From NCBI GenBank assembly GCA_017940105.1, contig JAGAZG010000168.1:1136-65135 (forward strand): a stretch of 64,000 nt of DNA. The letters run 5' to 3'. Source of the DNA: Mailhella sp. (GTDB lineage: Bacteria; Desulfobacterota; Desulfovibrionia; Desulfovibrionales; Desulfovibrionaceae). The translations under genes were made by a program, and so were the position numbers. A model generated the notes under the pieces. The model worked only from the letters and a program-made list of their open reading frames with translations. It did not search any database and was not told the DNA's origin. Every line of letters begins with the position of its first letter. The stretch's first letter is position 1. Shown here piece after piece: positions 9,110 to 25,882 of the stretch.

Positions 9110-9145
9110 GCAAATCCAGCAAACCGTTGAGATGGTTGGAAACGC
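9110..9145. other. Putative recombination site, left inversion junction
   Basis: Core AACCGTTGAGAT (9122-9133) is the exact reverse complement of 25863-25874 and lies at the strand switch. Confidence 0.7.
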
Positions 9146-9606
9146 TAAAAGATGTGACAGCGGTGGCTGCATTCACGGCAGTCGCCTTATATGCCATGCC
9201 CGCAGATAAGGCAAAGCCAGTTCAAAAGCCGGTCATGGTTGTAAAAATCCAGGAGCCTGTGGAGCCGATACCGCAAGCACAGCCCAGATGGTCTGAAGAA
9301 GATGTCAGGGCGATGGCTCTTACGCTTGCTGGTGAGTGTTACTCAGACAAGGTGCAGGACAAACGGCTTGTGTGTGAAGTCATCCTAAACCGAGTCAGCG
9401 ACAGCAGATTTAAGGACAGCGTGGTTGAGGTGCTGGAAACGCCGAATGCCTTCAATGGCTACTGGCAGCAGTCAAGACCCGTAACCGAAAATGACATAGC
9501 TGTTGCAGAGCAAACATTGGCAGACTGGCACGACAATGGATGCCAGCCGTTGTCAGATATTCGGTTCTTCTGCTCCGGCGGAAACCGAGAAAACCATTTT
9601 TATTGA
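9127..9606 (+). CDS. SleB/Hydrolase_2 cell-wall hydrolase, apparently a 5'-truncated half
   Basis: LAGEC...VCEVILNRV..SRF..SVVEV; no RBS; in frame with 25861-26094 across the inversion core. Confidence 0.7.
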   Translation: MRWLETLKDVTAVAAFTAVALYAMPADKAKPVQKPVMVVKIQEPVEPIPQAQPRWSEEDVRAMALTLAGECYSDKVQDKRLVCEVILNRVSDSRFKDSVVEVLETPNAFNGYWQQSRPVTENDIAVAEQTLADWHDNGCQPLSDIRFFCSGGNRENHFY

Positions 9607-9628
9607 TGTGATGAAAGGGGTCAAAATC

Positions 9629-10066
9629 ATGGAAATCGTAATCACCGTAGAAGCTGCGGCTCTTGCCGAGGCTATCAATAACTTGGCAATGGCATTGCAG
9701 GGGGCGAAAATTCCAGCACAGCAGCAGACAGCACCTGCGCAGACACCGGTAGCACCCGCACCGGCACCTGTTCAGGCTCCTCAGCCCGTGCCGACTCCCC
9801 CCGTGGCACAGCCGCAACAGGCCCCGGCTCCACAGCCTGCACCCGCACAGCAGGGATTGCCGGTAGCAGGAGTTCCGTTGGCAACAGCTCCGAAATACAC
9901 CGTGGAGCAGATTATGGCAGCCGGTGCAACATTGATGGATGCGGGCAAGGCGAATGACCTGATTAACCTGCTTCATTCCTTCGGCGTTCAAGCCGTAATG
10001 GAGCTGAAGCCCGAACAGCTTGGCGCGTTTGCCACGGCTATGCGGGATTTGGGGGCAAAGATATGA
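9629..10066 (+). CDS. Conserved phage protein with Pro/Ala/Gln-rich linker
   Basis: Usual first gene of the DUF2800-DUF2815-PolA module. Confidence 0.75.
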   Translation: MEIVITVEAAALAEAINNLAMALQGAKIPAQQQTAPAQTPVAPAPAPVQAPQPVPTPPVAQPQQAPAPQPAPAQQGLPVAGVPLATAPKYTVEQIMAAGATLMDAGKANDLINLLHSFGVQAVMELKPEQLGAFATAMRDLGAKI

Positions 10067-11247
10067 GCGATCATGCACTGCTCTCCCCGTCTGCTGCGCA
10101 TCGCTGGCTAAACTGCCCGCTGTCAGCCCGGCTTGAAGCAGAACTGCCAGAAAAGACCAGTTCCTTCGCAGAGGAAGGGACGCTGGCCCACAGCGTATGC
10201 GAGGTCATGGCAAAGAAGCATTTCGGAAAAATCAAGGCCGCAAGCTGTACGAGAACTCTCAAGAAGCTCAAAGCTGACCCGCTGTGGGACGATGAGATGC
10301 TTCGCTCGGCAGAGACTTATGTTGAGCATCTTGCTGAAAGAGCGATGGGCTTTGCAAGTGAACCTTATGTCGCATTTGAAACGAGCGTTGACATTTCCGC
10401 CTATGTCCCGGAAGCATTCGGGCGATGTGATTGCATCATGTTTGGCGGTGACACGCTTGTCATCACAGACTTCAAGAATGGCAAGGGCGTGAAAGTATGC
10501 GCGGCGGAAAATCCACAGCTTATGCTGTACGCTTTGGGGGCCATCAAGCTCTACCAGCCGATTTTTGGAGGCGGCATCCTGAACGTCGAGATTTACATTG
10601 ACCAGCCGAGGCTTGGAAGCTATGAAAGCTGGAAATGTACCGTGGAAGAACTTTTGGCCTGGGGCGAGGAAATCAAGCCCAAAGCACAGATGGCTTATGC
10701 AGGTTTCGGCGAGTATCATGCCGGAGAATGGTGCAGGTTCTGCCGAGCACATGGAAGGTGTAAAGCACAGGCCAGACAGCAAATATCAGCATTTGATGAT
10801 TTTGCTCCGGCGATAAAGAGCAATCTGACAGGACTGCTATCCCCAGAAGAAATGAGCGAAGCACTCCGAAAAGGTGAGACGCTGGTGGAATGGTTCAGTG
10901 CAGTAAAAGAAGCTGCTCTTATGAGGTTGCTTGAAGGCATCCCCATTCCCGGATTCAAGATTGTCGAGGGACGCAGTTCTCGCGCATGGTCTAACCAAGA
11001 CAAGGCTTTGGAAGCCTTGGAAGCTCAGGGCATTAAGCGGGCTGTGATTTACGACAGCGTTCCCAAGACGTTGGCACAGATTGAGAAAATGCTGGGCAAG
11101 CAGAAATTTGATGAGATGGTTGGTGAGTTCGTGACTAAGCCACAAGGCAAGCCAACGCTCGCCCCTGAAAGCGATAAGCGTCCAGTATTCAGTTCAGCCG
11201 CTACCGACTTTGCAGCAGTTGCAGAAAACGTAAAGAGCGAAACGTAA
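10063..11247 (+). CDS. DUF2800 Cas4-like PD-(D/E)XK exonuclease
   Basis: HALLSPSAAHRWLNCP, EGTLAH, FGRCD, DFKNG, NPQLMLYALG, WCRFC. Confidence 0.88.
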   Translation: MSDHALLSPSAAHRWLNCPLSARLEAELPEKTSSFAEEGTLAHSVCEVMAKKHFGKIKAASCTRTLKKLKADPLWDDEMLRSAETYVEHLAERAMGFASEPYVAFETSVDISAYVPEAFGRCDCIMFGGDTLVITDFKNGKGVKVCAAENPQLMLYALGAIKLYQPIFGGGILNVEIYIDQPRLGSYESWKCTVEELLAWGEEIKPKAQMAYAGFGEYHAGEWCRFCRAHGRCKAQARQQISAFDDFAPAIKSNLTGLLSPEEMSEALRKGETLVEWFSAVKEAALMRLLEGIPIPGFKIVEGRSSRAWSNQDKALEALEAQGIKRAVIYDSVPKTLAQIEKMLGKQKFDEMVGEFVTKPQGKPTLAPESDKRPVFSSAATDFAAVAENVKSET

Positions 11248-11317
11248 AATGTAAAGAGCAAAAAGCGAAAAGTGAAGACGAAAAAGTGAAATGTAAAGAG
11301 TTGAGGAGGAAAAGAGT

Positions 11318-11983
11318 ATGTATAACAACATCCCTACCAAAGTTTTGACCGGTGAAGTCCGCCTGTCTTATGTGAACCTCGTGGCGCCCCGCGCGAACAA
11401 CAATGACCCCAGCGCAACTCCGAAGTATTCCGTGACCCTGCTCATCCCGAAGACGGATGTAGCTGTTAAGCAGAACATTGATGCCAGCATCGAGGCCGCT
11501 GCCGCTGATGCTCAGAGCAAGATTTGGAATGGTGTGCGCCCCCCTGTCATGCCCGTTCCCATCCACGATGGTGACGGTGTTCGTGAGAATGGAACGCCGT
11601 ATGGCGATGAGTGCAAAGGGTGCTGGGTCATCACCGCAAGCACGAAGAATAAGCCGCAGGTCGTTCACCAGAGTGACATTAACACCGAGCTTCTGCCGCA
11701 GGATATTTACAGCGGGATGTATGCCCGCGTTACCATCAATTTCTTTGGCTATGCCCGCGCTGGCAAGCGTGGTATCGGATGTGGCCTGGGCAACGTGATG
11801 AAGACTCGTGACGGCGATCCGCTGGCAGGTGGAGCATCTGCTGCGGCTGACTTCGCTGGCATTGGTATGACCCCCGGAGCTGCTACGGTAGCGACGGGTT
11901 ATGCCCCCGGAACTCCTTCCACTGTTCCGTCAGGGGCGCAGCCAGGAGCCATCAACCCGCTTACGGGACAGCCGATGTATTGA
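11318..11983 (+). CDS. DUF2815 single-stranded DNA-binding protein
   Basis: VRLSYV...KYSVTLLIPK...IYSGMYAR...GLGNVMK. Confidence 0.88.
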   Translation: MYNNIPTKVLTGEVRLSYVNLVAPRANNNDPSATPKYSVTLLIPKTDVAVKQNIDASIEAAAADAQSKIWNGVRPPVMPVPIHDGDGVRENGTPYGDECKGCWVITASTKNKPQVVHQSDINTELLPQDIYSGMYARVTINFFGYARAGKRGIGCGLGNVMKTRDGDPLAGGASAAADFAGIGMTPGAATVATGYAPGTPSTVPSGAQPGAINPLTGQPMY

Positions 11984-11993
11984 TACGAAAATG

Positions 11994-12030
11994 AACCCCG
12001 CAGTTGACCAAAGCCTTGACTGCGGGGTTT
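11994..12030 (+). terminator. Putative intrinsic terminator
   Basis: AACCCCGCAGT...ACTGCGGGGTTT hairpin. Confidence 0.55.
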
Positions 12031-12049
12031 GTAATCAGGAGACGCAAGT

Positions 12050-12433
12050 ATGGAAAATAATTTTCATGTCAGATGGATGACTGGCAACATCAGCGTGAAT
12101 GCCGAACGGTACTTTTCCAGCATGGGAATGCCGTCCATCAAGAAATTGCTGAAATTGGCTTGCCAGCATTGTACCGAGGATGACCGAAAAAAGCTCATCG
12201 TCCTTCTTGAAGAAGCCGTGGAAAATCACGATTTGGCCATGAAGACAGCAGAGGATTTGCGCCAGCAGTCTGATGCCTTGTTTGCAGAACGCATCAGAGG
12301 CTACGTCAACAGGCCGAAATCCACGCCGGAAAAACAGTTGAAAAAGCAACACCAGAAACTGCTGAATGTCATCAAAATTGTTAAGGGACAGAAGTGGTTA
12401 GCGTTTGTTAAAGAACAGGAGTGGCTGCCGTGA
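12050..12433 (+). CDS. Hypothetical protein
   Basis: 127 aa, AGGAG RBS. Confidence 0.65.
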   Translation: MENNFHVRWMTGNISVNAERYFSSMGMPSIKKLLKLACQHCTEDDRKKLIVLLEEAVENHDLAMKTAEDLRQQSDALFAERIRGYVNRPKSTPEKQLKKQHQKLLNVIKIVKGQKWLAFVKEQEWLP

Positions 12434-14418
12434 AGCATCTTTCGATTGATATTGAAACTTTCAGCAGCGAACCGATACCGAAAACGGGTCTGTATAAGTA
12501 CGTCCAGAGCCGGGATTTCGAGGTGCTGCTGTTCGCATACAGCCTAGACAGCGGCCCTGTGGAAATCGTTGACCTTGCTCAAGGAGAAGAACTCCCGGCA
12601 TGGGTTGCCCAGGCGCTGTTCGACTCTGATTATGTTAAGCACGCTTACAATGCTGCTTTCGAGTGGTATTGCTTATCGAAGTTCTGCGGACGGCCTTTGC
12701 CGATTGAGCAATGGCGGGACACGATGCTTCACGGCCTGTATTGCGGGCTGACGGCAGGTTTGGATGCCACGGGCAAAGCCTTGAACCTCCCTGCTGACAA
12801 GCAGAAAATGTCCGTAGGCAAAGCCCTGATTCGTTATTTCTGTGTACCCTGCAATCCAACGAAAGCCAACGGCGGCAGGACGCGGAACTATCCGAAGCAC
12901 GACCCTGAAAAGTGGGCACTATTCAAGCAGTATTGCCAAGGCGATGTCACAACTGAAATGGAAATCGACCGGAGGCTGTCAGCCTTCCCTGTGCCGGAAG
13001 CCATTGAAAAGCAGTGGCAGACAGACCTCCGCATCAATGCCCGTGGTGTGGCCGTGGATATGGAGTTGGTGCAGGGAGCCTTGGAAATAGCAGGAAAGAC
13101 CCATGACAGGCTAATGCAGGAGGCCATCGGCATCACAGGACTGCAAAATCCCAACAGCATCGCCCAGCTTGCCAAGTGGCTTGAGGAAACGACGGGAGAA
13201 ACCCTGCCCGATCTCCGCAAGGACACCGTAGAACAGATGCTCAAGACGCAAGCCGTGACTGGCTCTGCCGAGCGTATGCTGGAAATCCGTCAGGAGCTGG
13301 GCAAGACCAGCACCAAGAAATACAACGCCATTGAGGCGGCAGTATGCGCCGATGGCAGAGTCCGTGGACTGTTGCAGTTCTACGGGGCGAACCGAACCGG
13401 CAGATGGGCGGGACGGCTCGTGCAGGTGCAGAACCTCGCCCGAACCTACATCGACCTGAAATACCTGCCGATGGCCCGCGAAGCGGTCAAGAAGCGTGAC
13501 GGCGAAAAGCTGAAAGTCCTGTTTGGCTCGCCGATGGACACGCTTTCCCAGCTTATCCGCACGTCGTTCATCGCCGGCGACGGCAACGTGCTGGTTGATG
13601 CGGACTTCTCCTCTATCGAGGCTAGGGTCATTGCATGGCTCGCCGGAGAGGAATGGGTACTGGAAGTGTTCAGGACGCATGGCAAGATTTATGAGGCCAC
13701 GGCAAGCCAGATGTTCGGGGTGCCGATTGAGAAAATCAAGAAGGGCAACCCGGAATACGCCCTGCGGCAGCGCGGGAAGGTGGCTACGCTGGCCCTCGGC
13801 TATCAAGGCGGTGTCGGCGCTCTTATCCAGATGGGAGCCTTGAACATGGGCATCCCGGAGGAAGACCTGCAAGACATCGTTTATCGCTGGCGTGAGGCCA
13901 ACAAGCGCATCGTGGACTTGTGGTACAGGGTCGAAAAAGCTGCGGTAGCCACCATTCAGACAGGGAAGCAGACGGGTGTGAACGGTCTGCTGTTCACGCG
14001 AGAGTTCGACATGGCAAACGGCCTGGACTACATGACCATCACCCTGCCGAGCCAGCGCAAGCTCTATTACGCCTTCCCTTCCCTGGGTACGAATCAGTGG
14101 GACAGACCATCCATCAACTATCGTGGCGTGAACCAGACTACGAAGCGGTGGGAGTCGCTTGAGACATACGGCGGGAAGCTCGTGGAGAACGTGGTGCAAG
14201 CTATCGCCCGCGACTGTCTGGCCCTCACGATTGAGAAGCTGGAAGCCGCCGGGTTCCCCATCGTGTTCCACGTCCATGATGAGGTAGTCATTGACTGCCC
14301 TGTCAGCATGGCGAACCTCGATGCCGTGGTCAGGATTATGACTGAGCCGATACCGTGGGCGCAGGGGCTGCCCCTGAACGCTGACGGATGGGTTGGGGAG
14401 TTCTTCCGAAAGGATTGA
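12421..14418 (+). CDS. Phage DNA polymerase, family A
   Basis: IDIET exonuclease motif, RTGRWAG, DFSSIEARV, KVATLALGY, HVHDE. Confidence 0.95.
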   Translation: MAAVKHLSIDIETFSSEPIPKTGLYKYVQSRDFEVLLFAYSLDSGPVEIVDLAQGEELPAWVAQALFDSDYVKHAYNAAFEWYCLSKFCGRPLPIEQWRDTMLHGLYCGLTAGLDATGKALNLPADKQKMSVGKALIRYFCVPCNPTKANGGRTRNYPKHDPEKWALFKQYCQGDVTTEMEIDRRLSAFPVPEAIEKQWQTDLRINARGVAVDMELVQGALEIAGKTHDRLMQEAIGITGLQNPNSIAQLAKWLEETTGETLPDLRKDTVEQMLKTQAVTGSAERMLEIRQELGKTSTKKYNAIEAAVCADGRVRGLLQFYGANRTGRWAGRLVQVQNLARTYIDLKYLPMAREAVKKRDGEKLKVLFGSPMDTLSQLIRTSFIAGDGNVLVDADFSSIEARVIAWLAGEEWVLEVFRTHGKIYEATASQMFGVPIEKIKKGNPEYALRQRGKVATLALGYQGGVGALIQMGALNMGIPEEDLQDIVYRWREANKRIVDLWYRVEKAAVATIQTGKQTGVNGLLFTREFDMANGLDYMTITLPSQRKLYYAFPSLGTNQWDRPSINYRGVNQTTKRWESLETYGGKLVENVVQAIARDCLALTIEKLEAAGFPIVFHVHDEVVIDCPVSMANLDAVVRIMTEPIPWAQGLPLNADGWVGEFFRKD

Positions 14419-14665
14419 TGGCCGTGACCGACTTCAATGAGAAGCTGATGGAATTTTGGCGGTGCTTGCAGGACATGGCCATCGAGCTGTATCAGAGATT
14501 TGTTCGTGCGTATCGAGAGATAAAGCGGATAATTGAGGCAATGCCGCTGTGGGAAGCAGACCTAAGAAACCAGATACTGCGAAAAGCCAAGTACCTGCGA
14601 CGCATGGCGCACAGCAAGCGGCATCGTCGCAAGCGAAAGAAACCATTGCACAGGAGGAAAAGGAA

Positions 14666-15304
14666 ATGAGGATTGTAACCCCAAGCATTGAAATTGTGAC
14701 CCCGCTTGACGGCAATGCCGTCGTAAAGCACATTGAGCGCTGCGGACGTGTTTGCTATAAGTCCGAGGACAGAATTATTGACGGTTCTGCTCAGAAGTTT
14801 ATCAAAGCCATTATCGACTGCGGGCATGAGTCGGTGCTGGAACATTTCAGCATCACCGTTAAGTTCATTGTTGACCGTGGTGTGTCGCATGAAATCGTGC
14901 GGCACAGACTGGCATCCTATTCCCAGGAAAGCACCCGCTATTGCAACTATTCCAAGGGCGAGTTCGGTTCGGAAATCACAGTGGTAAAGCCGCCGTTTTT
15001 CGACGTGGGCGATGCCGGGTATGTATGCTGGAAAGCTGCTTGCGAAGAAGCTGAGGAAGCCTATTTCGCCCTGCTCAACATCGGCTGCACACCGCAGGAG
15101 GCTCGGAGTGTACTGCCCAACAGCTTGAAGACTGAGTTGTATATGACTGCGAACCTTCGCGAATGGCGGTGGTTCTTCCGCAAACGTGCTGCGCCTGACG
15201 CTCATCCGCAGATGCGGGAGGTCGCTTATCCCTTGCTTGCGCAGATGAGCAATATGATACCAGGTGTGTTCGATGATTTGGGAGATTGCCATGACAAACC
15301 TTGA
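14666..15304 (+). CDS. thyX: FAD-dependent thymidylate synthase
   Basis: GHESVLEH, VSHEIVRHRLASYSQESTRY, ARSVLP, NLREWR. Confidence 0.95.
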   Translation: MRIVTPSIEIVTPLDGNAVVKHIERCGRVCYKSEDRIIDGSAQKFIKAIIDCGHESVLEHFSITVKFIVDRGVSHEIVRHRLASYSQESTRYCNYSKGEFGSEITVVKPPFFDVGDAGYVCWKAACEEAEEAYFALLNIGCTPQEARSVLPNSLKTELYMTANLREWRWFFRKRAAPDAHPQMREVAYPLLAQMSNMIPGVFDDLGDCHDKP

Positions 15305-15890: not shown

Positions 15891-16101
15891 AACTATGATG
15901 GCTTTACTGACAGTCATATCATTGCTGGCGGCGGGCACTACATGGGTATTCGCCTGGAAGATAAACCATCAGTGGTCTGACTTCATCGACAAGCAAAATG
16001 AAGATTGGGCAAAATTATGCACCCGGCTGAATGACGAATGGTTTAAGTTATACCAGACGATTTCAGAAAAGAATGCAACCGAAAATCGAGAAAGTGAGTG
16101 A

Positions 16102-17721: not shown

Positions 17722-20078
17722 GCTGGCAGCCGCAGACCATGATGCTGTCGGAGTTCTATGAAAAGCTCCGTATTCCCAGCCGTTCCACGGAGACGATGGC
17801 TGAGTACCTTGCCCTGAAAAAGTCCGAGCAGGACGACAAGAAGGACATTGGCGGGTTCGTGGCGGGCAGCCTCTCCGGCGCCCGCCGCAAAGCCGGGGCG
17901 GTTACGGGGCGTGACCTCATCACGCTGGACTTCGACAACATCCCGCCGGGAGGCACGGAGGATGTGCTGCGTCGTGTGGAGGGACTTGGGTGCGGGTACT
18001 GCATCTACTCCACACGCAAGCACTCCCCCACCACTCCCCGGCTCCGCATCCTGCTGCCATTCGACCGTTCAGCATCGGCGGACGAGTACGAGCCAGCCGC
18101 CCGCTACATGGCGGCGGCCATTGGCATGGAGTTTGCCGACCCGACCACGTTCGAGGCATCACGCCTGATGTACTGGCCAAGCTGCTGCGCGGACGGCGAA
18201 TACGTCTTCACTTATGAGGATAAGCCCATGCTGTCTGTGGACGGTCTTCTCGATGCCGTCACGGAGAAGTACGGCGACTGGAAGGACGTGACGAACTGGC
18301 CACAGGTTCCCGGCTCGGAAAACGCCTATCGCAAGCTCGCGACAAAGCAATCAGATCCCGTGACAAAGGCTGGCATCATCGGGGCGTTCTGCCGGACTTA
18401 TGACATCTACACCGCAATGGAATCATTTCTCCCCGGCATCTATGCACCGGTGGACAATATGCCTGGACGGTATACCTATCTCGGCGGCAGTACCACGGGC
18501 GGGGCCGTTATTTATGACAATGGACTGTTCCTTTACTCGCACCACTCCACTGACCCTTGCAGCGGAAGGCTGGTCAATGCGTTCGACCTCGTGAGGCTTC
18601 ACAAGTTCGGGGACGCAGATGATGATGCCGGGGCAAACACCCCGGCGAACCGCCTCCCATCCTATCAGATGATGTGCGAGCTTGCCGTTGCGGATGCCAA
18701 GGTATCGAGGCAGCTTGCCAAGGAACGGGCAGAATCAGCAGTCAGCGACTTCGGCCAGCTTGCCACCCACGAGGATGACGAAGGCAGCCTGGACTGGACA
18801 ACGGAGCTGGAACTGAACAGCCAGACCGGAGCCATCAAGGCGACCATCGACAACATTTGGCTGATACTGGAAAACGACCCGAACCTGCGTGGCAAGTTCG
18901 CATTGAACGAGTTCGCAGGGCGCGGGGAAATCCTCGGCGAATTGCCGTGGAGTCCATTTGCGGGCCGCAGGGCGTGGGCTGACAATGACAATCAGGGCCT
19001 GTACTGGTATTTCGAGAAGGTTTATAAGATTACAGGCAACGGGAAGATTGACGGCGCCCTGTCGCTCCACAGTGAGAAGCATAAGTTCAACGACGTAAAG
19101 AACTATCTCGGCGGGCTGCAATGGGATGGCGTTCCGAGGCTGGACACGCTTTTGGTGGATTACCTCGGCGCGGCGAACAGCAACTACGTGCGGGCCGTTA
19201 CACGAAAGGCGTTCACGGCGGCAGTAGCACGGGCCATGACCCCCGGCTGCAAGTATGACACGATGCTGATTCTTTCTGGGCCGCAGGGCCTCGGCAAGTC
19301 CACGTTCCTTGACCGCATGAGCCGTGGGTGGTTCAACGATGGCATCCGCACCTTTGAGGGCAAGGAAGCCAGCGAGCTGTTGCAGGGTGTATGGCTCATT
19401 GAGATACAGGAACTGGATGCTTTCCGCAAGACGGATGTGTCCCGTATCAAGCAGTTCCTGAGCCTTCGGTATGACCGCTTCAGGGCTGCCTATGGGCGGC
19501 ACGTCAAGGACATCCCCAGGTGCTGCGTGTTTTTCGGAACGACGAACACAACCGAGTTCCTGCGGGACAGGACAGGCAATCGTCGGTTCTGGCCCGTGGA
19601 TGTCGGGGTATTCCAGCGGAAGAAGGACATCTGGAAACAGCTCAATCAGGAAATCGACCAGATTTGGGCAGAGGCGGTCATGCGGTGGCGCATCGGCGAA
19701 AGCCTCCACCTTATCGGCGATGTGGAAAATGAAGCAAGGGTCGTGCAGGAAGAACACAGAGAAGCCGGAAACCTCGAAGGACTGATAGCGCAGTACCTTG
19801 AAAGGCCGGTGCCAGAAGACTGGCAGAAATGGTCTTTGGAAAAGCGCAAAATGTTCCTGAACGGTGAAGGAACCGCAGAAAACCTCGTTCCCCGTGACAG
19901 GGTATGTGCCTTGGAGATATGGTGCGAGGTACTGAACGGCCAGATGAAAGACCTGTCGTACACAACGACCACAGAGATAAACGACATTTTAAGGTCGATG
20001 CCAATGTGGGAAAAGACGTCGAATGGACTGCGGTTTGGATACTGCGGATACCAGCGGGGATTTCGCAGAAAGCATTGA
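17667..20078 (+). CDS. Primase-helicase, VirE/virulence-associated E family
   Basis: N-terminal prim-pol (TLDFD, YSTRKH, PRLR); Walker A GPQGLGKST; TGNRRFWP. Confidence 0.92.
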   Translation: MQHDRKIILSVGSNRRSVSWQPQTMMLSEFYEKLRIPSRSTETMAEYLALKKSEQDDKKDIGGFVAGSLSGARRKAGAVTGRDLITLDFDNIPPGGTEDVLRRVEGLGCGYCIYSTRKHSPTTPRLRILLPFDRSASADEYEPAARYMAAAIGMEFADPTTFEASRLMYWPSCCADGEYVFTYEDKPMLSVDGLLDAVTEKYGDWKDVTNWPQVPGSENAYRKLATKQSDPVTKAGIIGAFCRTYDIYTAMESFLPGIYAPVDNMPGRYTYLGGSTTGGAVIYDNGLFLYSHHSTDPCSGRLVNAFDLVRLHKFGDADDDAGANTPANRLPSYQMMCELAVADAKVSRQLAKERAESAVSDFGQLATHEDDEGSLDWTTELELNSQTGAIKATIDNIWLILENDPNLRGKFALNEFAGRGEILGELPWSPFAGRRAWADNDNQGLYWYFEKVYKITGNGKIDGALSLHSEKHKFNDVKNYLGGLQWDGVPRLDTLLVDYLGAANSNYVRAVTRKAFTAAVARAMTPGCKYDTMLILSGPQGLGKSTFLDRMSRGWFNDGIRTFEGKEASELLQGVWLIEIQELDAFRKTDVSRIKQFLSLRYDRFRAAYGRHVKDIPRCCVFFGTTNTTEFLRDRTGNRRFWPVDVGVFQRKKDIWKQLNQEIDQIWAEAVMRWRIGESLHLIGDVENEARVVQEEHREAGNLEGLIAQYLERPVPEDWQKWSLEKRKMFLNGEGTAENLVPRDRVCALEIWCEVLNGQMKDLSYTTTTEINDILRSMPMWEKTSNGLRFGYCGYQRGFRRKH

Positions 20079-20118
20079 CGAGATGTTTCCAAAGGGGCGA
20101 AACTTCGACTTTGCAGAA

Positions 20119-20372
20119 CAATTTAGGCACGAAAGTCTAAGTTTAGGCACGAAATTCAACCCATTGTTTCGGGCTAGTTTGTTATCAAGTTTCAGGGCTT
20201 GTTTCGGGGTTGTTTCGGCGTGAAGCCTTGATATATCTATACTTATAGTTATATTGAAACATTGAAACATTTAATCTTAATAGAATAGAAGAATAGGTGT
20301 TTTAGAGAATATAGGTAAATAATGTATATGCCTAATGTACCTAATATACCTATATTGAGTAATATAAGGATT
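20119..20372 (+). repeat. AT-rich element (candidate replication origin), copy 1
   Basis: TTTAGGCACGAAA twice, GAAACATTGAAACATTTAATCTTAATAGAATAG; inverted homolog at 48873-49130. Confidence 0.75.
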
Positions 20373-20600
20373 TGGAGGTGCTGTTTCGCCATGATTCCGG
20401 TTGAAAAATACGTCGCTGAGGCCGACAAAATCGAGTGGCTTGAAGGGCTGCTGAAGTCGCACGGCTCGATGCTGCGCGAGACGATTTTCGAGGAGGGTGC
20501 GAAGTTGGGCTTTTCGCGGCAGAGCATAAAAAACGCCCGCCGCTTCGAGGGGTCACGCATCGTGGCCCGTGAGGGCTTTTGGATTTGGCGAGGTTAGGCT

Positions 20601-20924
20601 ATGCTTGAGAAACAGATTGAACGTCGCCTGGTCGATGGCGTGAAGAAGCTCGGCGGGATGTGCATGAAATTCGTCAGCCCCGGTACGCCGGGTGTCCCTG
20701 ACCGAATCATCGTGACCGCCACGGGCAGAGTGATTTTTGCGGAACTGAAGACCGAGACTGGCCGCCTGACGAAATTGCAGCGGCACACGGTCGAGCAGTT
20801 GAAGAAACGCGGGGCTGACGTGAGGGTTGTCAAAGGCTCTGATGAGGTCAAAGCCCTGCTGGCTGAGATTGAGAACGATGATTGCATACGGAGACTGAAG
20901 GCGGTGATGGACAATGAAATTTAA
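20601..20924 (+). CDS. VRR-NUC domain nuclease
   Basis: EKQIE...KFVSPG..GVPDRI...FAELK...Q. Confidence 0.9.
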   Translation: MLEKQIERRLVDGVKKLGGMCMKFVSPGTPGVPDRIIVTATGRVIFAELKTETGRLTKLQRHTVEQLKKRGADVRVVKGSDEVKALLAEIENDDCIRRLKAVMDNEI

Positions 20925-22293
20925 GCCGTACCCCTACCAGCAGTTCTGCATCGACTATGTGATCCGCAATGTTGCTGTTGGTTTGCTGCTGGATATGGGA
21001 TTGGGCAAGACGGTCATCACGCTGACCGCCCTCCATGACCTCCGTTACAATCGGTGGGAGGTATCGAAGCCGCTCATCATAGCACCGAAGAAAGTGGCCG
21101 AGGCCACCTGGACAGCTGAGGCTAAGAAATGGGAGCACCTGCGGATGATGCGGGTTGTTCCCGTCCTTGGCACGGTGAGCCAGCGATTGAAAGCCCTTGC
21201 CACTCCCGCCGATGTATATGTCATCAATCGCGAAAATACGCAGTGGCTGGTCGAGCATTTCAAGAACTCATGGCCCTTTGACATGGTGGTGCTGGATGAA
21301 AGCTCGTCTTTCAAGAACAGCCAGAGCAAGCGGTTCAAGGCGCTCCGCCTTGTCCGCTCCCGCATCCGGCGCATCGTGGAACTGACGGGTACGCCAGCAA
21401 GCAATGGACTGGAAGACCTGTGGGCGCAGATTTTTCTGCTGGACGGGGGTCAGCGGCTCGGCAAGACTCTTGGTGCTTACCGCGACAGGTACTTCGTCCC
21501 CGGCAGGAGAAACCAGACGACGATATTCAATTATGAGCCGAAGGACGGCAGCTTCGAGATGATTAAGCGGGCCATCAGCGACATCTGCATCAGCATGAAG
21601 GCCAGCGACTACATCAGCTTGCCGGACATCGTTTACAACGAGGTTCCCGTGGCTCTCGATGCCAAGGCGAAGAAAGCCTATGAGCAGTTGGAGCGTGAGC
21701 TGCTTTTGGAAGTGAACGACGAGACGATTACCGCTGGCAGTGCTGGCGTCCTGACTGGCAAGCTGTTGCAGCTTTGCAACGGTGCTGTTTACAGCGAGGA
21801 TAGGAACGTCGTGCCAGTCCATGACTGCAAGTTGGATGCCTTCATGGAACTGGTCGAGCAGTTGAACGGGCAGCACGCTCTCGTGTTCTACGACTTCAAG
21901 CATGACCGTGACCGGCTGCTTGATGCGCTGGCAAAGACGAAGCTGCGGGTCAGGGTCTACTCGCAAGCGCAGGACGAGGCAGACTGGAATGCCGGGTTAA
22001 TCGACATCCTTCTCGCCCACCCTGCCAGTTGCGGTTATGGCTTGAATTTGCAGCAGGGAGGCCATCATGCCGTTTGGTTTGGGTTGACTTGGAGCCTTGA
22101 GCAGTATGAGCAAGCAAACAAGCGTCTGCACCGTCAAGGGCAGGAGCATCCAGTGGTCGTTCATCATCTAGTCGTGCAGGGCGGGATGGATGAATCTGTC
22201 ATGGAGGCTCTGAAGAACAAGGGAGATATGCAGGAAGCCCTGCTTGCCGCCCTCAAAGCCCGCATAAGCAGATTGTGCAGTAAATGCAGGTAG
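20914..22293 (+). CDS. SNF2-family helicase
   Basis: DMGLGKT, VLDESS, LTGTP, GLNLQ, QANKRLHRQGQ. Confidence 0.93.
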   Translation: MKFKPYPYQQFCIDYVIRNVAVGLLLDMGLGKTVITLTALHDLRYNRWEVSKPLIIAPKKVAEATWTAEAKKWEHLRMMRVVPVLGTVSQRLKALATPADVYVINRENTQWLVEHFKNSWPFDMVVLDESSSFKNSQSKRFKALRLVRSRIRRIVELTGTPASNGLEDLWAQIFLLDGGQRLGKTLGAYRDRYFVPGRRNQTTIFNYEPKDGSFEMIKRAISDICISMKASDYISLPDIVYNEVPVALDAKAKKAYEQLERELLLEVNDETITAGSAGVLTGKLLQLCNGAVYSEDRNVVPVHDCKLDAFMELVEQLNGQHALVFYDFKHDRDRLLDALAKTKLRVRVYSQAQDEADWNAGLIDILLAHPASCGYGLNLQQGGHHAVWFGLTWSLEQYEQANKRLHRQGQEHPVVVHHLVVQGGMDESVMEALKNKGDMQEALLAALKARISRLCSKCR

Positions 22294-22302
22294 AAAAGGA
22301 GG

Positions 22303-22785
22303 ATGCCCATGCAGAAGGAAGAAATTGCTGAAATAGCCCGTATTGCGGCGGTTGAGGCGTTGGCCAAGCGGGATAGCATCGTCAAGGAGGAGCTTGATGC
22401 CAGATACCATGATGTGAAGCTCTTGATGAAGAATTACCGCAAGCTGAAAGCCCACTATGCGCACGTCTCGCCGGAAGCGTTGGAGGTCAACGCCATCTGC
22501 TCGTTGAAGCGGAAGACTGGCTTGATGATGAGCCATGTGGACAGGATGCTGTCAGCATACAAGGCCCTTTGCGAGAGTGCCGTGGAACGTCACGAGGCGA
22601 TGCGATGGGATGCTTTGTATATGCGGTATATTTCTGACGAGCGGCTGACCATTGACGACATCGCCGCCCGCCTGGGCGACGTTGACCGCCGCACGTTCTA
22701 TCGGTATATTGACAGGGCTTTCGAGGATATGGCGGTGCTGCTGTTCGGCATCGAAGCCATCGGGACTTGGAAGCCGAAGAAATAG
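22303..22785 (+). CDS. ArpU/RinA-like late transcriptional regulator
   Basis: C-terminal sigma-4-like HTH (LYMRY...IAARL..DRRTFYR); last gene of replication operon. Confidence 0.65.
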   Translation: MPMQKEEIAEIARIAAVEALAKRDSIVKEELDARYHDVKLLMKNYRKLKAHYAHVSPEALEVNAICSLKRKTGLMMSHVDRMLSAYKALCESAVERHEAMRWDALYMRYISDERLTIDDIAARLGDVDRRTFYRYIDRAFEDMAVLLFGIEAIGTWKPKK

Positions 22786-22787
22786 TT

Positions 22788-22817
22788 GCCGGGGGCTTTT
22801 CAGCCCTCGGCATTTTT
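22788..22817 (+). terminator. Intrinsic terminator
   Basis: GCCGGGGGCT-TTTC-AGCCCTCGGC followed by ATTTTT. Confidence 0.65.
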
Positions 22818-22825
22818 CTGCTTTC

Positions 22826-23027
22826 GTGTGCTTTCCCGGTGAACATAGCCGCCCTCTCCTTGCTTTTCCGAAGCCCGCAATCCCTTACCACACAAAGGCT
22901 CAGAGAATATCGCTCCTACGGCGCAAAAATAATTTTCGTATATTCTTCTTTAGGCTATCGCAGGAAAACTGACCAGAGGGAAACCAGAAGGCATACAGAG
23001 AGCAGAAAATTTCGGCCCGTGGACATT
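22826..23027 (+). repeat. ~200-bp dispersed non-coding element, copy B
   Basis: Reverse-complement homolog of 1706-1908 and 28876-29078. Confidence 0.9.
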
Positions 23028-23070
23028 CCGACTTTCAGTAGAATTCTTGGAAAATAATTCGTAAACATGA

Positions 23071-23098
23071 TTGACTTATACGGTTAGCGTGTTAAGAT
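23071..23098 (+). promoter_or_regulatory. Repeated promoter
   Basis: TTGACT-tatacggttagcgtgt-TAAGAT. Confidence 0.75.
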
Positions 23099-23140
23099 GA
23101 AGACAAGATAAATCATAACACCTGAACAGAACGAAAGGGG

Positions 23141-23338
23141 TTGGACGACATGACGAAGCGGGAAAGATTTGCGAAAGCACTGTGGGAAACCTTCAGGTAT
23201 GAGCTGCGCAAGGATGACAATATAAGATTTGTTCGCGGGTATGCTGATGAGAATATAGCTGATGTGGTTATCACACGGGCGGACGGATGCAAGGCAACCG
23301 TGGATGCTTATGACATCCAGCTTGGCTGCTTCCAGTGA
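23141..23338 (+). CDS. Small hypothetical protein
   Basis: AAAGGGG RBS; lies between promoter repeat and hammerhead 3. Confidence 0.7.
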   Translation: MDDMTKRERFAKALWETFRYELRKDDNIRFVRGYADENIADVVITRADGCKATVDAYDIQLGCFQ

Positions 23339-23342
23339 TGAA

Positions 23343-23406
23343 AGCCGAAACCAGCCGAAAGGCTGGTCAGCCGGAATTGACCTACCGGCTCTGATGTTGG
23401 CAGGTT
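23343..23406 (+). ncRNA. Hammerhead ribozyme, type II (copy 3; CUGAUGU core variant)
   Basis: Same stems as copies 2 and 4, but A9 replaced by U. Confidence 0.85.
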
Positions 23407-23424
23407 GATAGCAGAAAGGGGCAG

Positions 23425-23724
23425 ATGAAAATGTTCGTAAATACGTTTTTCCGTGTGGAGCCATCGTACAACAGGAAGGGCGAGCTGGTGACGACGAAGG
23501 TGCATGGCTATGACTTGTCGGCAAGTGGTGTGAGGATGCTTGACCTTGACGGCTACGCCCCGATTTTGGAAAAGTTCGGCGGCTGGTTCAACAAGAAGTC
23601 CCGCTGCATTTCCATTCCCGCAGAGGTGTCCCGCCTGGAACTCGCAAACTGGCTGGAATTCTACTATGGCGGCGAGGGCGATAATCCGAATGGCCAGCTG
23701 AATGCAGTGTATGTTGGAATTTAA
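23425..23724 (+). CDS. Small hypothetical protein
   Basis: 99 aa, AAAGGGG RBS just after the ribozyme. Confidence 0.75.
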   Translation: MKMFVNTFFRVEPSYNRKGELVTTKVHGYDLSASGVRMLDLDGYAPILEKFGGWFNKKSRCISIPAEVSRLELANWLEFYYGGEGDNPNGQLNAVYVGI

Positions 23725-23757
23725 GTAGAATTTCTTGAAAAATTTTCGTAAACATGA

Positions 23758-23785
23758 TTGACTTATACGGTTAGCGTGTTAAGAT
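23758..23785 (+). promoter_or_regulatory. Repeated promoter
   Basis: Identical core to 23071-23098. Confidence 0.75.
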
Positions 23786-23837
23786 GAAGACAAGATAAAT
23801 CACAACCACCTGAACGGAACGAAGGGAGACGATTGAG

Positions 23838-24008
23838 ATGTCGGCAAACATGAAGCAGTTCGTAGAGTATTGTGAAGCGTATGATCAGACTGGAAGCAAG
23901 AAATTTCGGGATGAGGCTATTCGGATTTACTGGATGCTGACGGGTACGACGCTCGCAGCAGATGAATTCGAGGACAGGTACTTGGATTTGATGCACGAAA
24001 ATTGGTAA
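23838..24008 (+). CDS. Small acidic protein (56 aa, not in ORF track)
   Basis: AAGGGAG RBS; MSANMKQFVEYCEAYDQ...DEFEDRYLDLMHENW; stop abuts hammerhead 4. Confidence 0.65.
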   Translation: MSANMKQFVEYCEAYDQTGSKKFRDEAIRIYWMLTGTTLAADEFEDRYLDLMHENW

Positions 24009-24071
24009 GCCGAAACCAGCCGAAAGGCTGGTCAGCCGGAACTGACCTACCGGCTCTGATGATGGCAGGTT
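24008..24071 (+). ncRNA. Hammerhead ribozyme, type II (copy 4)
   Basis: Canonical CUGAUGA/GAAA core, GUC at 24031-24033, perfect stems I and III. Confidence 0.92.
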
Positions 24072-24097
24072 AAGCAGAACGAAGGGAGCTGGCCGAA

Positions 24098-24349
24098 ATG
24101 ACGAAGATGGAATATGCGATGAAGCAGAACAGCCGTGAGATTGAGCAGGTTGAGAAGAAAATCATGGACAGCCTTGAGGCGATCAAGCGCAGCACCGAGC
24201 GGGCCTTGGCAGCAGAGAACAAAGCCTTCTCGACGGACATTCCGAGCATTGCTTGCTATGCGGCAGAACTCAAGATGGCGCAGGAAAAGTTGGAGCTTTT
24301 GTATCAGCATCGTCAGACGCTTGAAATGCTGGCAGCCGATGAAGATTGA
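24098..24349 (+). CDS. Small coiled-coil hypothetical protein
   Basis: 83 aa, AAGGGAG RBS after the ribozyme. Confidence 0.7.
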   Translation: MTKMEYAMKQNSREIEQVEKKIMDSLEAIKRSTERALAAENKAFSTDIPSIACYAAELKMAQEKLELLYQHRQTLEMLAADED

Positions 24350-24365
24350 TGAGAGGGCGGCAGAG

Positions 24366-24659
24366 ATGAAGAACGTAAGCGAATTTGACATCAGTCTGAA
24401 GAAGTTGTCCTGGGACAAGCTGTTCGACAGCGAGGAGGAATTGGTTGAGGCTATGATGGGCTGTCCGGTAGAACGGACTGCCAGCCGACATGGACTTGTG
24501 CCGAAGGGTTATGAGTATATCGCCGGGTTCCAGCGGTACTATGCCAAGAACCGCTGCCTGACCGACAAGCAGATGACCCAGCTCAAAAGGCTGGCGAAGT
24601 CTGTGTATGTCGGCATCAAGGGCATGAACGTGGGTGGCTACATCGCAATGTGCTGGTAA
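24366..24659 (+). CDS. Hypothetical protein
   Basis: GAGAGGG RBS before MKNVSEF; followed by terminator at 24663-24687. Confidence 0.65.
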   Translation: MKNVSEFDISLKKLSWDKLFDSEEELVEAMMGCPVERTASRHGLVPKGYEYIAGFQRYYAKNRCLTDKQMTQLKRLAKSVYVGIKGMNVGGYIAMCW

Positions 24660-24740
24660 GCTGGCGGGCCTTGTTGCCCGCCTTTTTCTGTGTCTTGCGC
24701 CTGTGACGCTATCGTGTTATGATGGTAGCATAGAAAGGAT

Positions 24741-24959
24741 GTGGTCGGAATGGCACAGAGCAAGGCGCACATGGCGGCGACCAGCCGTTATGAGCAGAAG
24801 GCATACGACAAGCTGTTGATACGTCTGCGCAAGGATGCAGATGTGAACGGCAGCACTGTCCGCGCCCATGCAGAGTCGCGCGGTGAAAGTATGCAGGGCT
24901 TTGTAGTCAGGGCCATCACGGAGACGATGGCACGAGACAGAGCCGGGATAACAGAATGA
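24741..24959 (+). CDS. Ribbon-helix-helix-like DNA-binding protein
   Basis: KAYDKLLIRLRK...AHAESRGESMQGFVVRAITETM; own promoter TTGCGC-17-TATGAT (24695-24723) and terminator 24962-24989. Confidence 0.7.
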   Translation: MVGMAQSKAHMAATSRYEQKAYDKLLIRLRKDADVNGSTVRAHAESRGESMQGFVVRAITETMARDRAGITE

Positions 24960-25230
24960 GCAAAGACCCGCAGAGATGCGGGTCTTTTTGTGTCCGCGTT
25001 TTCCCCAAAATGGCATCGCGCATCGCATAGCGTCAGCCCTCTCAAATCAAGCGCCCAGAGGCGCATCGCTTCTCAGAGCTTCTCCGCAGCCCTCGAATAC
25101 AATCCCCTTCGCAAGCTGCGTAAATCCGCTCTCAGCGAGTACCAGAGGCTTGCATTTTGGTGATTCAGTAGTCCTGGGTGGTCAGTTGCGACTGTGAGTA
25201 AAATTTCTTGAAAACTTTTCCGAAAAACTA

Positions 25231-25258
25231 TTGCAATATACAGATAGCGTGTTAAGAT
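25231..25258 (+). promoter_or_regulatory. Repeated promoter
   Basis: TTGCAA-tatacagatagcgtgt-TAAGAT, same core as 1172-1199. Confidence 0.75.
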
Positions 25259-25310
25259 GAAGACAAGATAAAGAACACCACTTGAACAGAACGAAAGGGG
25301 GTCAGACGAT

Positions 25311-25562
25311 ATGGAAAACGCAACGGAAAAGGCCGCCCGGCTCCAACGCGGGGACAGCTTGTACTGGTACTGCATCATGACCGTCTACCACGACGATGGC
25401 AAGATAGAACGCAGCATCGTTCGGGATGACAGGACAGGCGCACCGTTCATCGTCAAGTCCTATGAGAAGCCGTTGGACGAATGTTACAGCCGGAAAGCGG
25501 CGGCAGTTTACTACACCTACTGCCACGGGTACAAGGAAGCGTTGGCCTGTTTGGCCCGCTGA
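25311..25562 (+). CDS. Small hypothetical protein
   Basis: 83 aa between promoter repeat and hammerhead 5. Confidence 0.7.
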   Translation: MENATEKAARLQRGDSLYWYCIMTVYHDDGKIERSIVRDDRTGAPFIVKSYEKPLDECYSRKAAAVYYTYCHGYKEALACLAR

Positions 25563-25563
25563 T

Positions 25564-25627
25564 AGCCGAAACAGCCCAGGCGGGCTGTCAGCCGGAGATG
25601 ACCTACCCGCTCTAATGATGGCAGGTC
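25564..25627 (+). ncRNA. Hammerhead ribozyme, type II (copy 5; CUAAUGA variant, probably impaired)
   Basis: GAAA-CAGCCC-AGGC-GGGCUG-UC; C-C mismatch in stem I; G5A. Confidence 0.75.
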
Positions 25628-25675
25628 GGGAAGGAGGTTTGATGAATTATTTTCGGAAAAATTTCCGAAAAACTA

Positions 25676-25704
25676 TTGACTATAACGACTCACAGGGCTA
25701 GAAT
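25676..25704 (+). promoter_or_regulatory. Orphan sigma-A-type promoter
   Basis: TTGACT-17-TAGAAT with no downstream plus-strand ORF in this orientation. Confidence 0.65.
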
Positions 25705-25846
25705 GAGATTATAGGGAAAGAAAAATTCCCGAAAAGCTCAGAGAAGTCCTCGGCAGCGGGTTGGTCAAGCTGCCCAGCACAACTGATAGCCAAGATTGGC
25801 CGGTGGCGACGGCTGGCCCGCATCAAGAGGCGGGAGTACATTATAG

Positions 25847-25882
25847 GCAAAGTCAGCAGACTATCTCAACGGTTCTATACAC
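25847..25882. other. Putative recombination site, right inversion junction
   Basis: ATCTCAACGGTT at 25863-25874; arm 25847-25862 matches arm 9110-9125 at 12/16. Confidence 0.7.

What the first reader, a model, noticed from the sequence alone, without database searches (positions are those of the whole stretch)
9110..25882. 16.7-kb apparent site-specific inversion that disconnects the replication module: a candidate recombinase-driven phage ON/OFF switch
Seen: AACCGTTGAGAT (9122-9133) and its exact reverse complement (25863-25874) sit at the two points where gene polarity flips. As assembled, the operons diverging from 9086 and 9127 are about 40 bp apart with no promoter, the cro operon dead-ends after one ORF, and the promoter at 25676 has no gene. 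Flipping the segment fixes all three: cro drives the replication genes, and the 25676 promoter drives the 9086 operon through its GGAGG RBS. All genes except repressor and recombinase then lie on one strand. The re-joined junctions are dyad-symmetric around GTTGAGAT: GCAAATCCAGCAAACC/AGTCTGCTGACTTTGC (12/16) and GTGTATAGAACC/GGTTGGAAACGC (8/12). The present junctions therefore look like attL/attR-type hybrids. All four repeat families are plus-strand inside the segment and minus-strand outside. Known: large serine recombinases act on imperfect-palindrome att sites with short cores and invert DNA between inverted sites. Inference: the recombinase 1 kb away uses an attP and an attB both carried by the phage, so dormancy could be set by self-inversion instead of, or as well as, integration.
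Basis: partly seen in the sequence, partly recalled or inferred. Interest (0 to 1): 0.92.

Follow-up and report, generated by a model that had tools for sequence, protein, structure and literature searches.

The report
Prophage integrase flips own replication module
This dormant gut-bacterium virus carries its 16.7-kb DNA-copying block back-to-front between two recombination sites of the same type as those that anchor it in the host DNA, public sequence data hold it in both orientations, and its single integrase enzyme likely flips the block as a physical off/on lock between dormancy and active growth.

Summary
Real, and richer than reported. The window is a 68-kb integrated prophage. Four arms of one attP-type motif occur in it. 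An outer direct pair (central TT) forms its ends; an inner inverted pair (central GA, 9129-9130 and 25866-25867) brackets the replication block. Contigs from independent studies support the assembled orientation; the flipped junction is also present for this phage in 2 of 4 runs. Rumen and gut relatives share the layout. Their flipped junction occurs in 3 of 22 virus-record hits, and four gene starts predicted from re-joining exist as called genes, none on contigs above 66 kb. All 7 integrated records show the assembled state; 3 of 6 excised ones are flipped or broken at the crossover, 3 are not. The 77-aa ORF after cro is a predicted directionality factor (0.63 vs 0.00). Best model: integrase alone integrates and locks replication off; integrase plus this factor excises and flips it on; the differing central dinucleotides likely keep the pairs apart. 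Untested biochemically. Ten paper searches found no description; this scan noted it before on other DNA (e1-5901571, e1-5919925).

The parts
308..333 (+). Outer left attachment site (prophage end): central TT at 308-309, then a P-type arm pointing inward; DNA to the left is non-prophage flank
   Evidence: Arm motif 24.6 bits with the window left out of the motif; pairs with the outer right arm at contig C145:69539-69564, outside the window, as a symmetric attP (16 of 22) giving a 68,120-bp prophage
7407..9086 (-). 559-aa ORF, first gene of the leftward operon; promoterless as assembled, downstream of the 25676 promoter after the flip
   Evidence: No Pfam or PHROG hit; next to the inner P arm in most relatives; no promoter-like site upstream; co-directional with the replication block in flipped record G439
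9105..9130 (+). Inner P arm plus crossover dinucleotide GA (9129-9130): left inversion junction, a P-B' hybrid
   Evidence: 25.6 bits, window left out; flipped P-P' junction at this point in runs X9 and X11
9127..9606 (+). Cell-wall-hydrolase (Hydrolase_2) ORF, first gene of the block; its 5' end is the B' arm and it lacks a ribosome-binding site as assembled
   Evidence: PF07486 E 1.3e-8; in relatives re-joining supplies RBS and start in frame, and those complete N-termini exist as called genes
9131..25865 (+). Invertible 16.7-kb block: DUF2800 nuclease, SSB, DNA polymerase A, ThyX, primase-helicase, VRR-NUC, SNF2 helicase, HTH regulator, then promoter/hairpin repeat cassettes with small ORFs
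   Evidence: Pfam; strand and skew flip; both orientations in relatives
25676..25704 (+). Sigma-70-type promoter facing the right junction: antisense to ORF77/cro as assembled, predicted to feed the 9086 operon when flipped
   Evidence: 10 of 12 consensus match; function inferred
25842..25867 (-). Inner P' arm plus crossover GA (TC at 25866-25867 on +): right inversion junction, a B-P' hybrid
   Evidence: 27.9 bits, window left out; same arm after ORF77 in 14 of 14 related loci
25891..25912 (+). Terminator-like hairpin plus T run on the strand antisense to ORF77; would shield cro/ORF77 from the 25676 promoter in the assembled state
   Evidence: 7 found in region, 4.4 expected, so not significant alone; hairpin plus T run in 8 of 12 sequences by eye, stems differ between lineages; the A run also codes for conserved residues
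25861..26094 (-). 77-aa ORF, candidate recombination directionality factor (RDF)
   Evidence: Follows cro beside repressor and integrase in 14 of 14 loci; 65 matches among 1.84 billion representatives; no Pfam or PHROG family, best PDB match E 0.035; complex score 0.63 vs best control 0.00
26091..26330 (-). Cro-like HTH protein
   Evidence: PF01381 E 1.9e-12
26488..26910 (+). Repressor-like HTH protein, overlapping the integrase start
   Evidence: PF01381 E 7.6e-14
26907..28307 (+). Large serine recombinase (integrase), 466 aa, intact; the only recombinase found in the prophage
   Evidence: Resolvase, Recombinase and Zn-ribbon domains; Ser11, DRLSR and four Cys present and conserved; phrog_95 integrase; no second integrase among the ORFs scanned

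Best explanation
The prophage carries two pairs of attachment sites with the same arm motif, an outer pair at its ends and an inner inverted pair around its replication block, and its one large serine integrase likely works both: alone it would integrate the phage and flip the block into the assembled, disconnected orientation, and with the 77-aa predicted directionality factor it would excise the phage and flip the block back. In the assembled state the cro promoter runs out after ORF77, the first replication-block gene is cut from its ribosome-binding site and start, and the leftward operon has no promoter (shown in sequence). In the flipped state all three are reconnected and the lytic genes lie on one strand (shown in record G439 and in called genes of relatives). 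The pairs are likely kept apart by their central dinucleotides: GA inside, A/T-only (TT, AA or AT) outside. Free phage likely carries the flipped state and lysogens the assembled one, so the flip would be a DNA-level lock on top of the repressor.
For: Shown: (1) the four best arm matches in the contig are the two inner and two outer sites (27.9, 25.6, 24.6, 20.9 bits; next 13.1; rest of genome at most 18.1). (2) The outer pair re-joins to a symmetric attP (16-18 of 22 in C145, G429, G443), and 6 virus records hold it intact. (3) The inner layout is found in 10 of 10 records with both junctions examined, with P-P' dyads of 12-16 of 22 against 4-11 for hybrids and cores that differ per phage. 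(4) Flipped P-P' DNA: 3 of 22 family hits in IMG/VR and 2 of 4 runs for this phage, beside the assembled form in X9 (depth 3.5 vs 10.5). (5) Flipped B-B' product: the starts predicted for G429, G430, G431 and G432 are the N-termini of P0309, P0071/P0193, P0243 and P0253. (6) Of 175 listed cluster members, 30 had flipped-type starts, 32 hybrid-type, 113 ambiguous; on contigs of 40 kb or more, 0 of 10 flipped-type but 5 of 9 hybrid-type exceed 70 kb (Fisher p 0.011, kin not independent, threshold chosen after seeing the lengths). P0309's longest contig (60,382) matches the G429 prophage length (about 60.1 kb). (7) 7 of 7 records with an outer host junction show inner hybrids; G439 has the flipped P-P' junction and the intact outer attP on one contig. 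Predicted: integrase-ORF77 complex 0.63 vs best of 3 controls 0.00 (mark reached by 116 of 157 solved and 2 of 215 mismatched pairs; run agreement at least 0%, partner pLDDT at least 64), at integrase residues 336-348 and 420-449, flanking the presumed coiled coil, where PMC12286644 places RDF binding. Known: integrase alone gives attL/attR, RDF reverses it, head-to-head sites invert, central dinucleotides must match (PMC4111918, passages).
Against: No activity, RNA or virion data. 3 of 6 records with an intact outer attP show the inner hybrids (G433, L131 and L132 records); excised vs integrated contrast is only p 0.07. G439 starts with a 55-base P-B' overlap, so it is a path through a mixed population. 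B-B' DNA was never seen directly: 0 of 14 family hits, 0 of 4 runs, none among joints listed; its evidence is protein starts whose DNA context I could not view. Flipped contigs for this phage are short and shallow (48 and 151 bases, depth 2.5-3.5). One of three complex runs scored 0.00. In G438 no start codon is split and in G434 the first gene has its own ATG. In the window the flipped start is unclear (TTG 12 bases from the RBS, or an in-frame fusion with ORF77; no fused protein). The two flanks of C145 do not read as halves of one gene.
Confidence: 0.78

Rival explanations
1. The flip is real and integrase-driven, but particles are packaged in the assembled (off) orientation; each infection must then flip the block on, so inversion is the lytic commitment step rather than the lysogenic one.
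For: 3 of 6 records with intact outer attP carry inner hybrids. In this lineage ORF77 loses its stop codon on flipping (sequence), which could inactivate it and let integrase flip the block back late in infection.
Against: Flipped-type gene starts sit on phage-sized contigs (7 at 60-66 kb) and never on longer ones; ORF77 ends before the crossover in the G429-G434 lineages; excised-plus-hybrid records can be mosaics of lysogen and free phage.
Confidence: 0.09
2. The inversion is bidirectional phase variation or a side reaction of the integrase that tunes expression but is not needed for the lysis-lysogeny decision; replication genes would be transcribed in either orientation.
For: Both states co-occur in samples; two weak 9-of-12 promoter matches lie near 9600-9700; no RNA data.
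Against: Sites are asymmetric P and B types, which gives directionality; 7 of 7 integrated records are hybrid; the first gene is split from its RBS in most lineages; the weak promoter matches are at chance level (2 found, 1.0 expected).
Confidence: 0.09
3. An unrecognised second recombinase (phage or host) or homologous recombination does the inversion; the resemblance to the outer sites is inherited.
For: Catalysis untested; many ORFs have no family.
Against: Shared cores are as short as 3 bases, too short for homologous recombination; inner and outer arms fit one motif; no second recombinase found.
Confidence: 0.03
4. Misassembly or a one-off fixed inversion that crippled this prophage.
For: A 12-bp inverted match is common by chance (252 in the window); the first two junction scans found only the assembled form.
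Against: Independent studies bridge both junctions; the layout recurs at about 70% integrase identity; both orientations exist.
Confidence: 0.01

Closest known systems
Large serine integrase/RDF systems of temperate phages (phiC31, Bxb1, A118/LI, SPbeta SprA/SprB); seen as passages of PMC4111918, PMC12286644 and 10.1101/2025.01.03.631226
   Same: Three-domain integrase, about 50-bp symmetric attP with a 2-bp crossover, attL/attR at prophage ends, small predicted RDF at the coiled-coil base.
   Different: Those phages are described with one attP and a host attB. Here a second attP and an attB lie inside the phage, inverted, around the replication genes, with a different central dinucleotide.
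Engineered integrase/RDF inversion memory switches and orthogonal central-dinucleotide att sites (PMC4111918, passages)
   Same: One integrase, head-to-head attP/attB, set by integrase and reset by integrase plus RDF; several site pairs kept apart by the central dinucleotide.
   Different: Those are laboratory constructs that flip a promoter or terminator; this is a natural phage that flips a 16.7-kb operon and splits a gene start.
Integration-dependent immunity of mycobacteriophages BPs, Brujita, Charlie (PMC3694055, abstract and section 4 read)
   Same: Site-specific recombination makes two exclusive DNA states tied to lysis or lysogeny; repressor and integrase are co-transcribed opposite cro.
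   Different: There attP lies in the repressor gene, integration itself is the switch and no RDF is needed. Here the repressor is intact and a separate internal inversion disconnects lytic genes.
Phage DNA-inversion systems Gin/Cin/Min and the Bifidobacterium Rin shufflon (PMC6109161, abstract); PinQ/PinR of cryptic prophages (search listing only)
   Same: A segment of the phage genome occurs in two orientations through site-specific recombination, re-joining gene parts.
   Different: Dedicated invertases acting on tail or receptor-binding genes; that Gin/Cin sites are near-identical and flip both ways is recalled, not from a call. Here the integrase itself acts on asymmetric P/B sites around replication genes.
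Gene-restoring elements SPbeta (spsM) and skin (sigK) (search listings of PMC5499854, PMC5025042)
   Same: A serine integrase with RDF restores a reading frame split at att sites.
   Different: They restore a host gene by excision; here a phage gene start is restored by inversion.

Membership tests
Large serine integrase system | Catalytic, recombinase and zinc-ribbon domains with intact catalytic serine | tested here: met
   PF00239, PF07508, PF13408; Ser11, DRLSR, Cys278/281/298/314
Large serine integrase system | Symmetric attP of about 50 bp around a 2-bp crossover | tested here: met
   Outer 16-18 of 22, inner 12-16 of 22
Large serine integrase system | Prophage bounded by hybrid sites in direct orientation, with the intact attP in the excised form | tested here: met
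   Both ends in C145, G429, G443; intact in 6 records. The C145 flanks do not read as one gene
Large serine integrase system | Distal binding motif 4-5 bp nearer the centre in attB than attP | tested here: inconclusive
   Shift of 5, tested first: p 0.21. Best shift is 4: inner arms 0 of 2000 shuffles, host arms 160 of 2000; the inner signal may come from the RBS, whose reverse complement resembles the motif
Large serine integrase system | Cognate RDF that binds at the coiled-coil/DBD2 junction | tested here: inconclusive
   Predicted only: 0.63 vs 0.00, runs 0.63/0.00/0.68; conserved position after cro
Large serine integrase system | Directional recombination activity on these sites | not testable with these tools
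   Needs a plasmid or in vitro assay
Phage invertase systems (Gin/Cin/Rin) | Dedicated small serine or tyrosine invertase separate from the integrase | tested here: not met
   Only the large serine recombinase was found
Phage invertase systems (Gin/Cin/Rin) | Inverted segment holds tail-fibre or receptor-binding gene parts | tested here: not met
   Segment holds polymerase, primase-helicase, SSB and SNF2 genes
Integration-dependent immunity switches | attP inside the repressor gene | tested here: not met
   No arm match in 26488-26910; the four sites lie elsewhere
Integration-dependent immunity switches | Recombination decides the outcome of infection | not testable with these tools
   Needs infection with integrase or site mutants

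The most novel reading that the evidence does not exclude
A widespread family of rumen and gut temperate phages uses a natural rewritable DNA switch: one serine integrase and one RDF act on two att pairs made orthogonal by their central dinucleotides, so that integration is coupled to flipping the whole replication module off and excision to flipping it on. This is a hard-wired lysis-lysogeny lock that makes prophage replication impossible until recombination has occurred, and it also hands over a new RDF family.
Probability: 0.72. Interest if true: 0.93.

Novelty: categorically new. Interest (0 to 1): 0.88.

Why it matters
Lysis-lysogeny control is usually described as repressor-based, with the integrase only moving the genome in and out. 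Here the same enzyme would rewire the lytic operon itself, preventing a still-integrated prophage from copying itself and making leaky induction a two-key event. The parts are textbook; the architecture was not found in print by the ten searches listed, and resembles what synthetic biologists built by design. It is directly testable: named cultured hosts carry a relative's gene (Neglectibacter timonensis, Dysosmobacter sp.), four junction PCRs read out the state, and junction ratios in existing metagenomes would give a per-sample marker of induction. It also offers an integrase-RDF pair with natural orthogonal sites, and warns that assemblies of these phages come in two gene orders.

Tried and rejected
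Core-based scans for the window's own flipped junction found none: viral contigs gave 6 hits, 3 assembled-type and 3 unrelated; metagenome contigs gave 2 chance hits. The first read-laying over 19.5 kb listed no strand-changing joint, with 15 joints and 124 loose ends not shown. A search for longer proteins fused to ORF77 found none among 110 candidates (weak evidence), nor among 120 hydrolase homologues. No homologue of the integrase (E 1e-60) or ORF77 was found in 100, 400 and 400 searched genomes related to G000 (overlapping sets). No close relative is in the isolated-phage collection, so no virion genome could be checked. I first considered a plasmid-like prophage that never integrates (no terminal repeats; G433 continuous) and IS30-type integration (PMC12823448, passages); both were dropped when the outer att pair appeared. 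A promoter match across the right crossover (25869-25840, 11 of 12) was set aside because its -10 box is not kept in the 92% relative. L016's junction next to a PHP-like gene was set aside: it has no P-type arm there. My notes and the second Fisher test counted 15 family hits in the B-arm scan; the correct count is 14 of 23 (13 hybrid, 1 ending at the crossover), so that test is not used. Rows dropped before counts: 4 of 26 unrelated hits, 9 of 23, 113 of 175 ambiguous starts.


Full report
Observation. The 12-mer at 9122-9133 and its reverse complement at 25863-25874 are exact and do not extend; 252 exact inverted matches of 12 or more bases exist in the window, so the match alone means little. 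Gene strand, GC skew and four repeat families all reverse at these two points: 21 of 24 called ORFs inside are +, 71 of 73 outside are -, the two exceptions outside being repressor and integrase. Symmetry centres on the GA at 9129-9130 and is higher in the re-joined junctions (14 and 10 of 22) than in the assembled ones (9 and 6 of 22). The window lies in a 70,360-bp contig without terminal repeats and encodes a myovirus-type temperate phage. The block between the sites holds a cell-wall-hydrolase ORF, DUF2800 nuclease, SSB, DNA polymerase A, ThyX, primase-helicase, VRR-NUC and SNF2 genes.

Not an artefact. Near-identical DNA is held by 20 of 24 listed runs from 14 studies, mostly ruminant gut by their labels. 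Contigs of X5 and X10, from studies other than the possible source, bridge both assembled junctions, and a relative with a 92% identical integrase has both.

A family-wide layout. The 77-aa ORF after cro found 14 related virus loci; in all 14 it follows integrase, repressor and cro and is followed by the same arm motif, and in 10 of 14 the replication genes are visible and point back at it. The second junction was located in every one of the 10 records examined for both. Re-joined P-P' sites are 12-16 of 22 symmetric against 4-11 for the hybrids. The bases shared by the two junctions differ per phage and span 3 to 14 bp, so only the central GA is the exchange point. In G429-G435 an RBS and start codon are stranded just before the crossover, in frame with the headless first gene on the other side; in G438 no such split is seen, and in G434 the first gene is an HTH-like ORF with its own ATG.

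Both orientations exist. A scan with the P-arm pattern gave 26 hits, 22 from this family: 18 assembled type, 3 flipped P-P', 1 contig ending at the GA. For the window's own phage, run X9 holds a 48-base P-P' contig (depth 3.5) beside the assembled junction (10.5), and X11 a 151-base one (2.5); X2 and X12 show only the assembled form. The other flipped junction, B-B', was not seen as DNA: 0 of 14 family hits, one ending at the GA, and 0 of 4 runs. It was seen as protein. The N-termini predicted for four lineages begin P0309, P0071 and its cluster, P0243 and P0253. I could not view the DNA around these genes.

Aligning the ends of homology among relatives showed a further arm. A motif built from inner arms found an outer pair in C145, at window 308-333 and contig 69539-69564, in direct orientation with TT at the centre, bounding 68,120 bp. 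With the window left out of the motif, the four sites are the four best scores in the contig, above anything in the other 1.68 Mb. G429 and G443 have both outer ends; G430, G431, G432 and the 92% relative show one. In the 92% relative the flank is the C-terminal part of a Macro-domain gene; the right flank of C145 resembles, from memory, the start of such a gene (21 aa, no Pfam hit), but the left flank does not continue it, which I cannot explain. Six records hold the outer attP intact and 17-18 of 22 symmetric. Outer centres are TT, AA or AT and never GA. So the phage does integrate, through sites with the same arms as the inversion sites, and only one recombinase was found.

State versus life stage. 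All 7 records with an outer host junction have inner hybrids. Of 6 with the intact outer attP, 2 have the flipped P-P' junction, 1 breaks at the crossover and 3 have hybrids (p 0.07, kin not independent). G439 carries the whole block, the P-P' junction, the leftward operon, the intact outer attP and the terminase on one strand, but begins with a 55-base P-B' overlap, the mark of a mixed population. Among 175 listed hydrolase cluster members, flipped-type starts (30) reach at most 65.6 kb of contig, seven of them at 60-66 kb, whereas hybrid-type starts (32) reach 167 kb; 113 were ambiguous. On contigs of 40 kb or more, 0 of 10 versus 5 of 9 exceed 70 kb (p 0.011; threshold set after seeing the data). 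This fits free phage flipped and prophage assembled, but the three excised-plus-hybrid records count against strict coupling.

Directionality factor. ORF77 has 65 matches among 1.84 billion representatives, no Pfam or PHROG family and no solved relative better than E 0.035. Folded with the integrase it scored 0.63 (runs 0.63, 0.00, 0.68) against 0.00 for the best of 3 controls; that mark was reached by 116 of 157 solved complexes and 2 of 215 mismatched pairs; run agreement was at least 0% and partner pLDDT at least 64. Contacts are at integrase residues 336-348 and 420-449, just after the zinc ribbon (271-332) and on both sides of the presumed coiled coil, the region where PMC12286644 places RDF binding. 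This supports binding and does not show it.

Mechanism. Shown: four same-type arms, two central dinucleotide classes, both inner orientations, both outer states, and the connectivity of promoters and gene starts in each orientation. From established integrase biochemistry (PMC4111918, passages): integrase alone drives attP x attB to hybrids, RDF reverses this, head-to-head sites invert, and central dinucleotides must match. Inferred: on lysogenic entry, integrase made with the repressor integrates the genome and flips the block off; on induction, the cro promoter makes ORF77, and integrase plus ORF77 excises and flips it on, joining cro to the replication genes and the 25676 promoter to the 9086 operon. 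A terminator-like hairpin antisense to ORF77 (8 of 12 sequences) would insulate cro in the off state. Confidence: 0.95 that the inversion is a live site-specific event, 0.78 for the full model.

Comparison with what is known. It is a member of the large serine integrase systems by domains, attP shape and prophage ends; the attB motif shift is inconclusive. It is not a Gin/Cin/Rin-type system or an integration-dependent immunity switch by the features tested, though it works like the latter in using recombination to set the life-cycle state. Ten searches of the held library found no natural phage whose integrase inverts its replication module; most subscription papers are not in that library and no supplements were read. 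Papers seen: passages of PMC12823448, 10.1101/2025.05.09.652943, PMC5883640, PMC12286644, PMC4111918 and 10.1101/2025.01.03.631226; abstract of PMC6109161; abstract and section 4 of PMC3694055; others as search listings only. After I had reached this reading, the scan's index showed two earlier AI reports of the same layout on other genomes; they agree but are not independent evidence.

Verdict. Observation confirmed; interpretation supported, with integration by a second att pair added. Interest 0.88.

Noticed in passing
window 32442-35505: Diversity-generating retroelement: reverse transcriptase (PF00078) and a 134-nt repeat pair at 33969-34102 and 34632-34765, 85% identical, the second copy in the 3' end of a 294-aa ORF.
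   Followed up: no
window 1118-1870, 22863-25710, 28811-29081, 64053-64216 (last beyond the window): Repeated cassettes of a sigma-70-type promoter and a hairpin repeat, each in front of small ORFs of no known family; content varies between relatives.
   Followed up: partly
contig C145:1-1442 (window 1-307 and beyond) and C145:69565-70360: The two flanks do not read as one interrupted gene; the left flank holds a 74-aa and an open 376-aa ORF with no good family hit and has no match elsewhere in the genome. Tandem insertion, secondary site or a mosaic of two lysogens are possible.
   Followed up: partly
L016:3957-6393: The integrase-repressor-cro-ORF77 cassette occurs without phage genes or a P-type arm, between an AAA ATPase-like and a PHP-like gene, in a Selenomonadales bin (gene labels recalled from the translations).
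   Followed up: partly
G443:C1:535 and 58605; G430:C1:53602; G429 left flank: Several prophages sit in ICE-like DNA (NlpC/P60, CD1107-like, Abi_2, UmuC-like genes). In G443 the flanks resemble, from memory, a plasmid mobilisation protein (no Pfam hit).
   Followed up: partly
G432:C1:34040 onward: Beyond the outer arm lies a different phage head and tail module (Clp protease, major capsid E), so this prophage may have integrated into or beside another prophage.
   Followed up: no
window 1910-2305 and 62229-62304: PemK/MazF-like gene near the outer left site, kept in all full-length relatives; tRNA-Lys(CTT) gene.
   Followed up: no
window 25861-25867 and 9127-9133: ORF77's stop codon is supplied by the P' arm; after the flip it would read in frame into the hydrolase ORF. 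L003, L024 and L036 also take their stop from that arm. No fused protein was found.
   Followed up: partly
window 60736-62163: Fused DNA adenine methylase-like and GNAT-like protein, also in G433.
   Followed up: no
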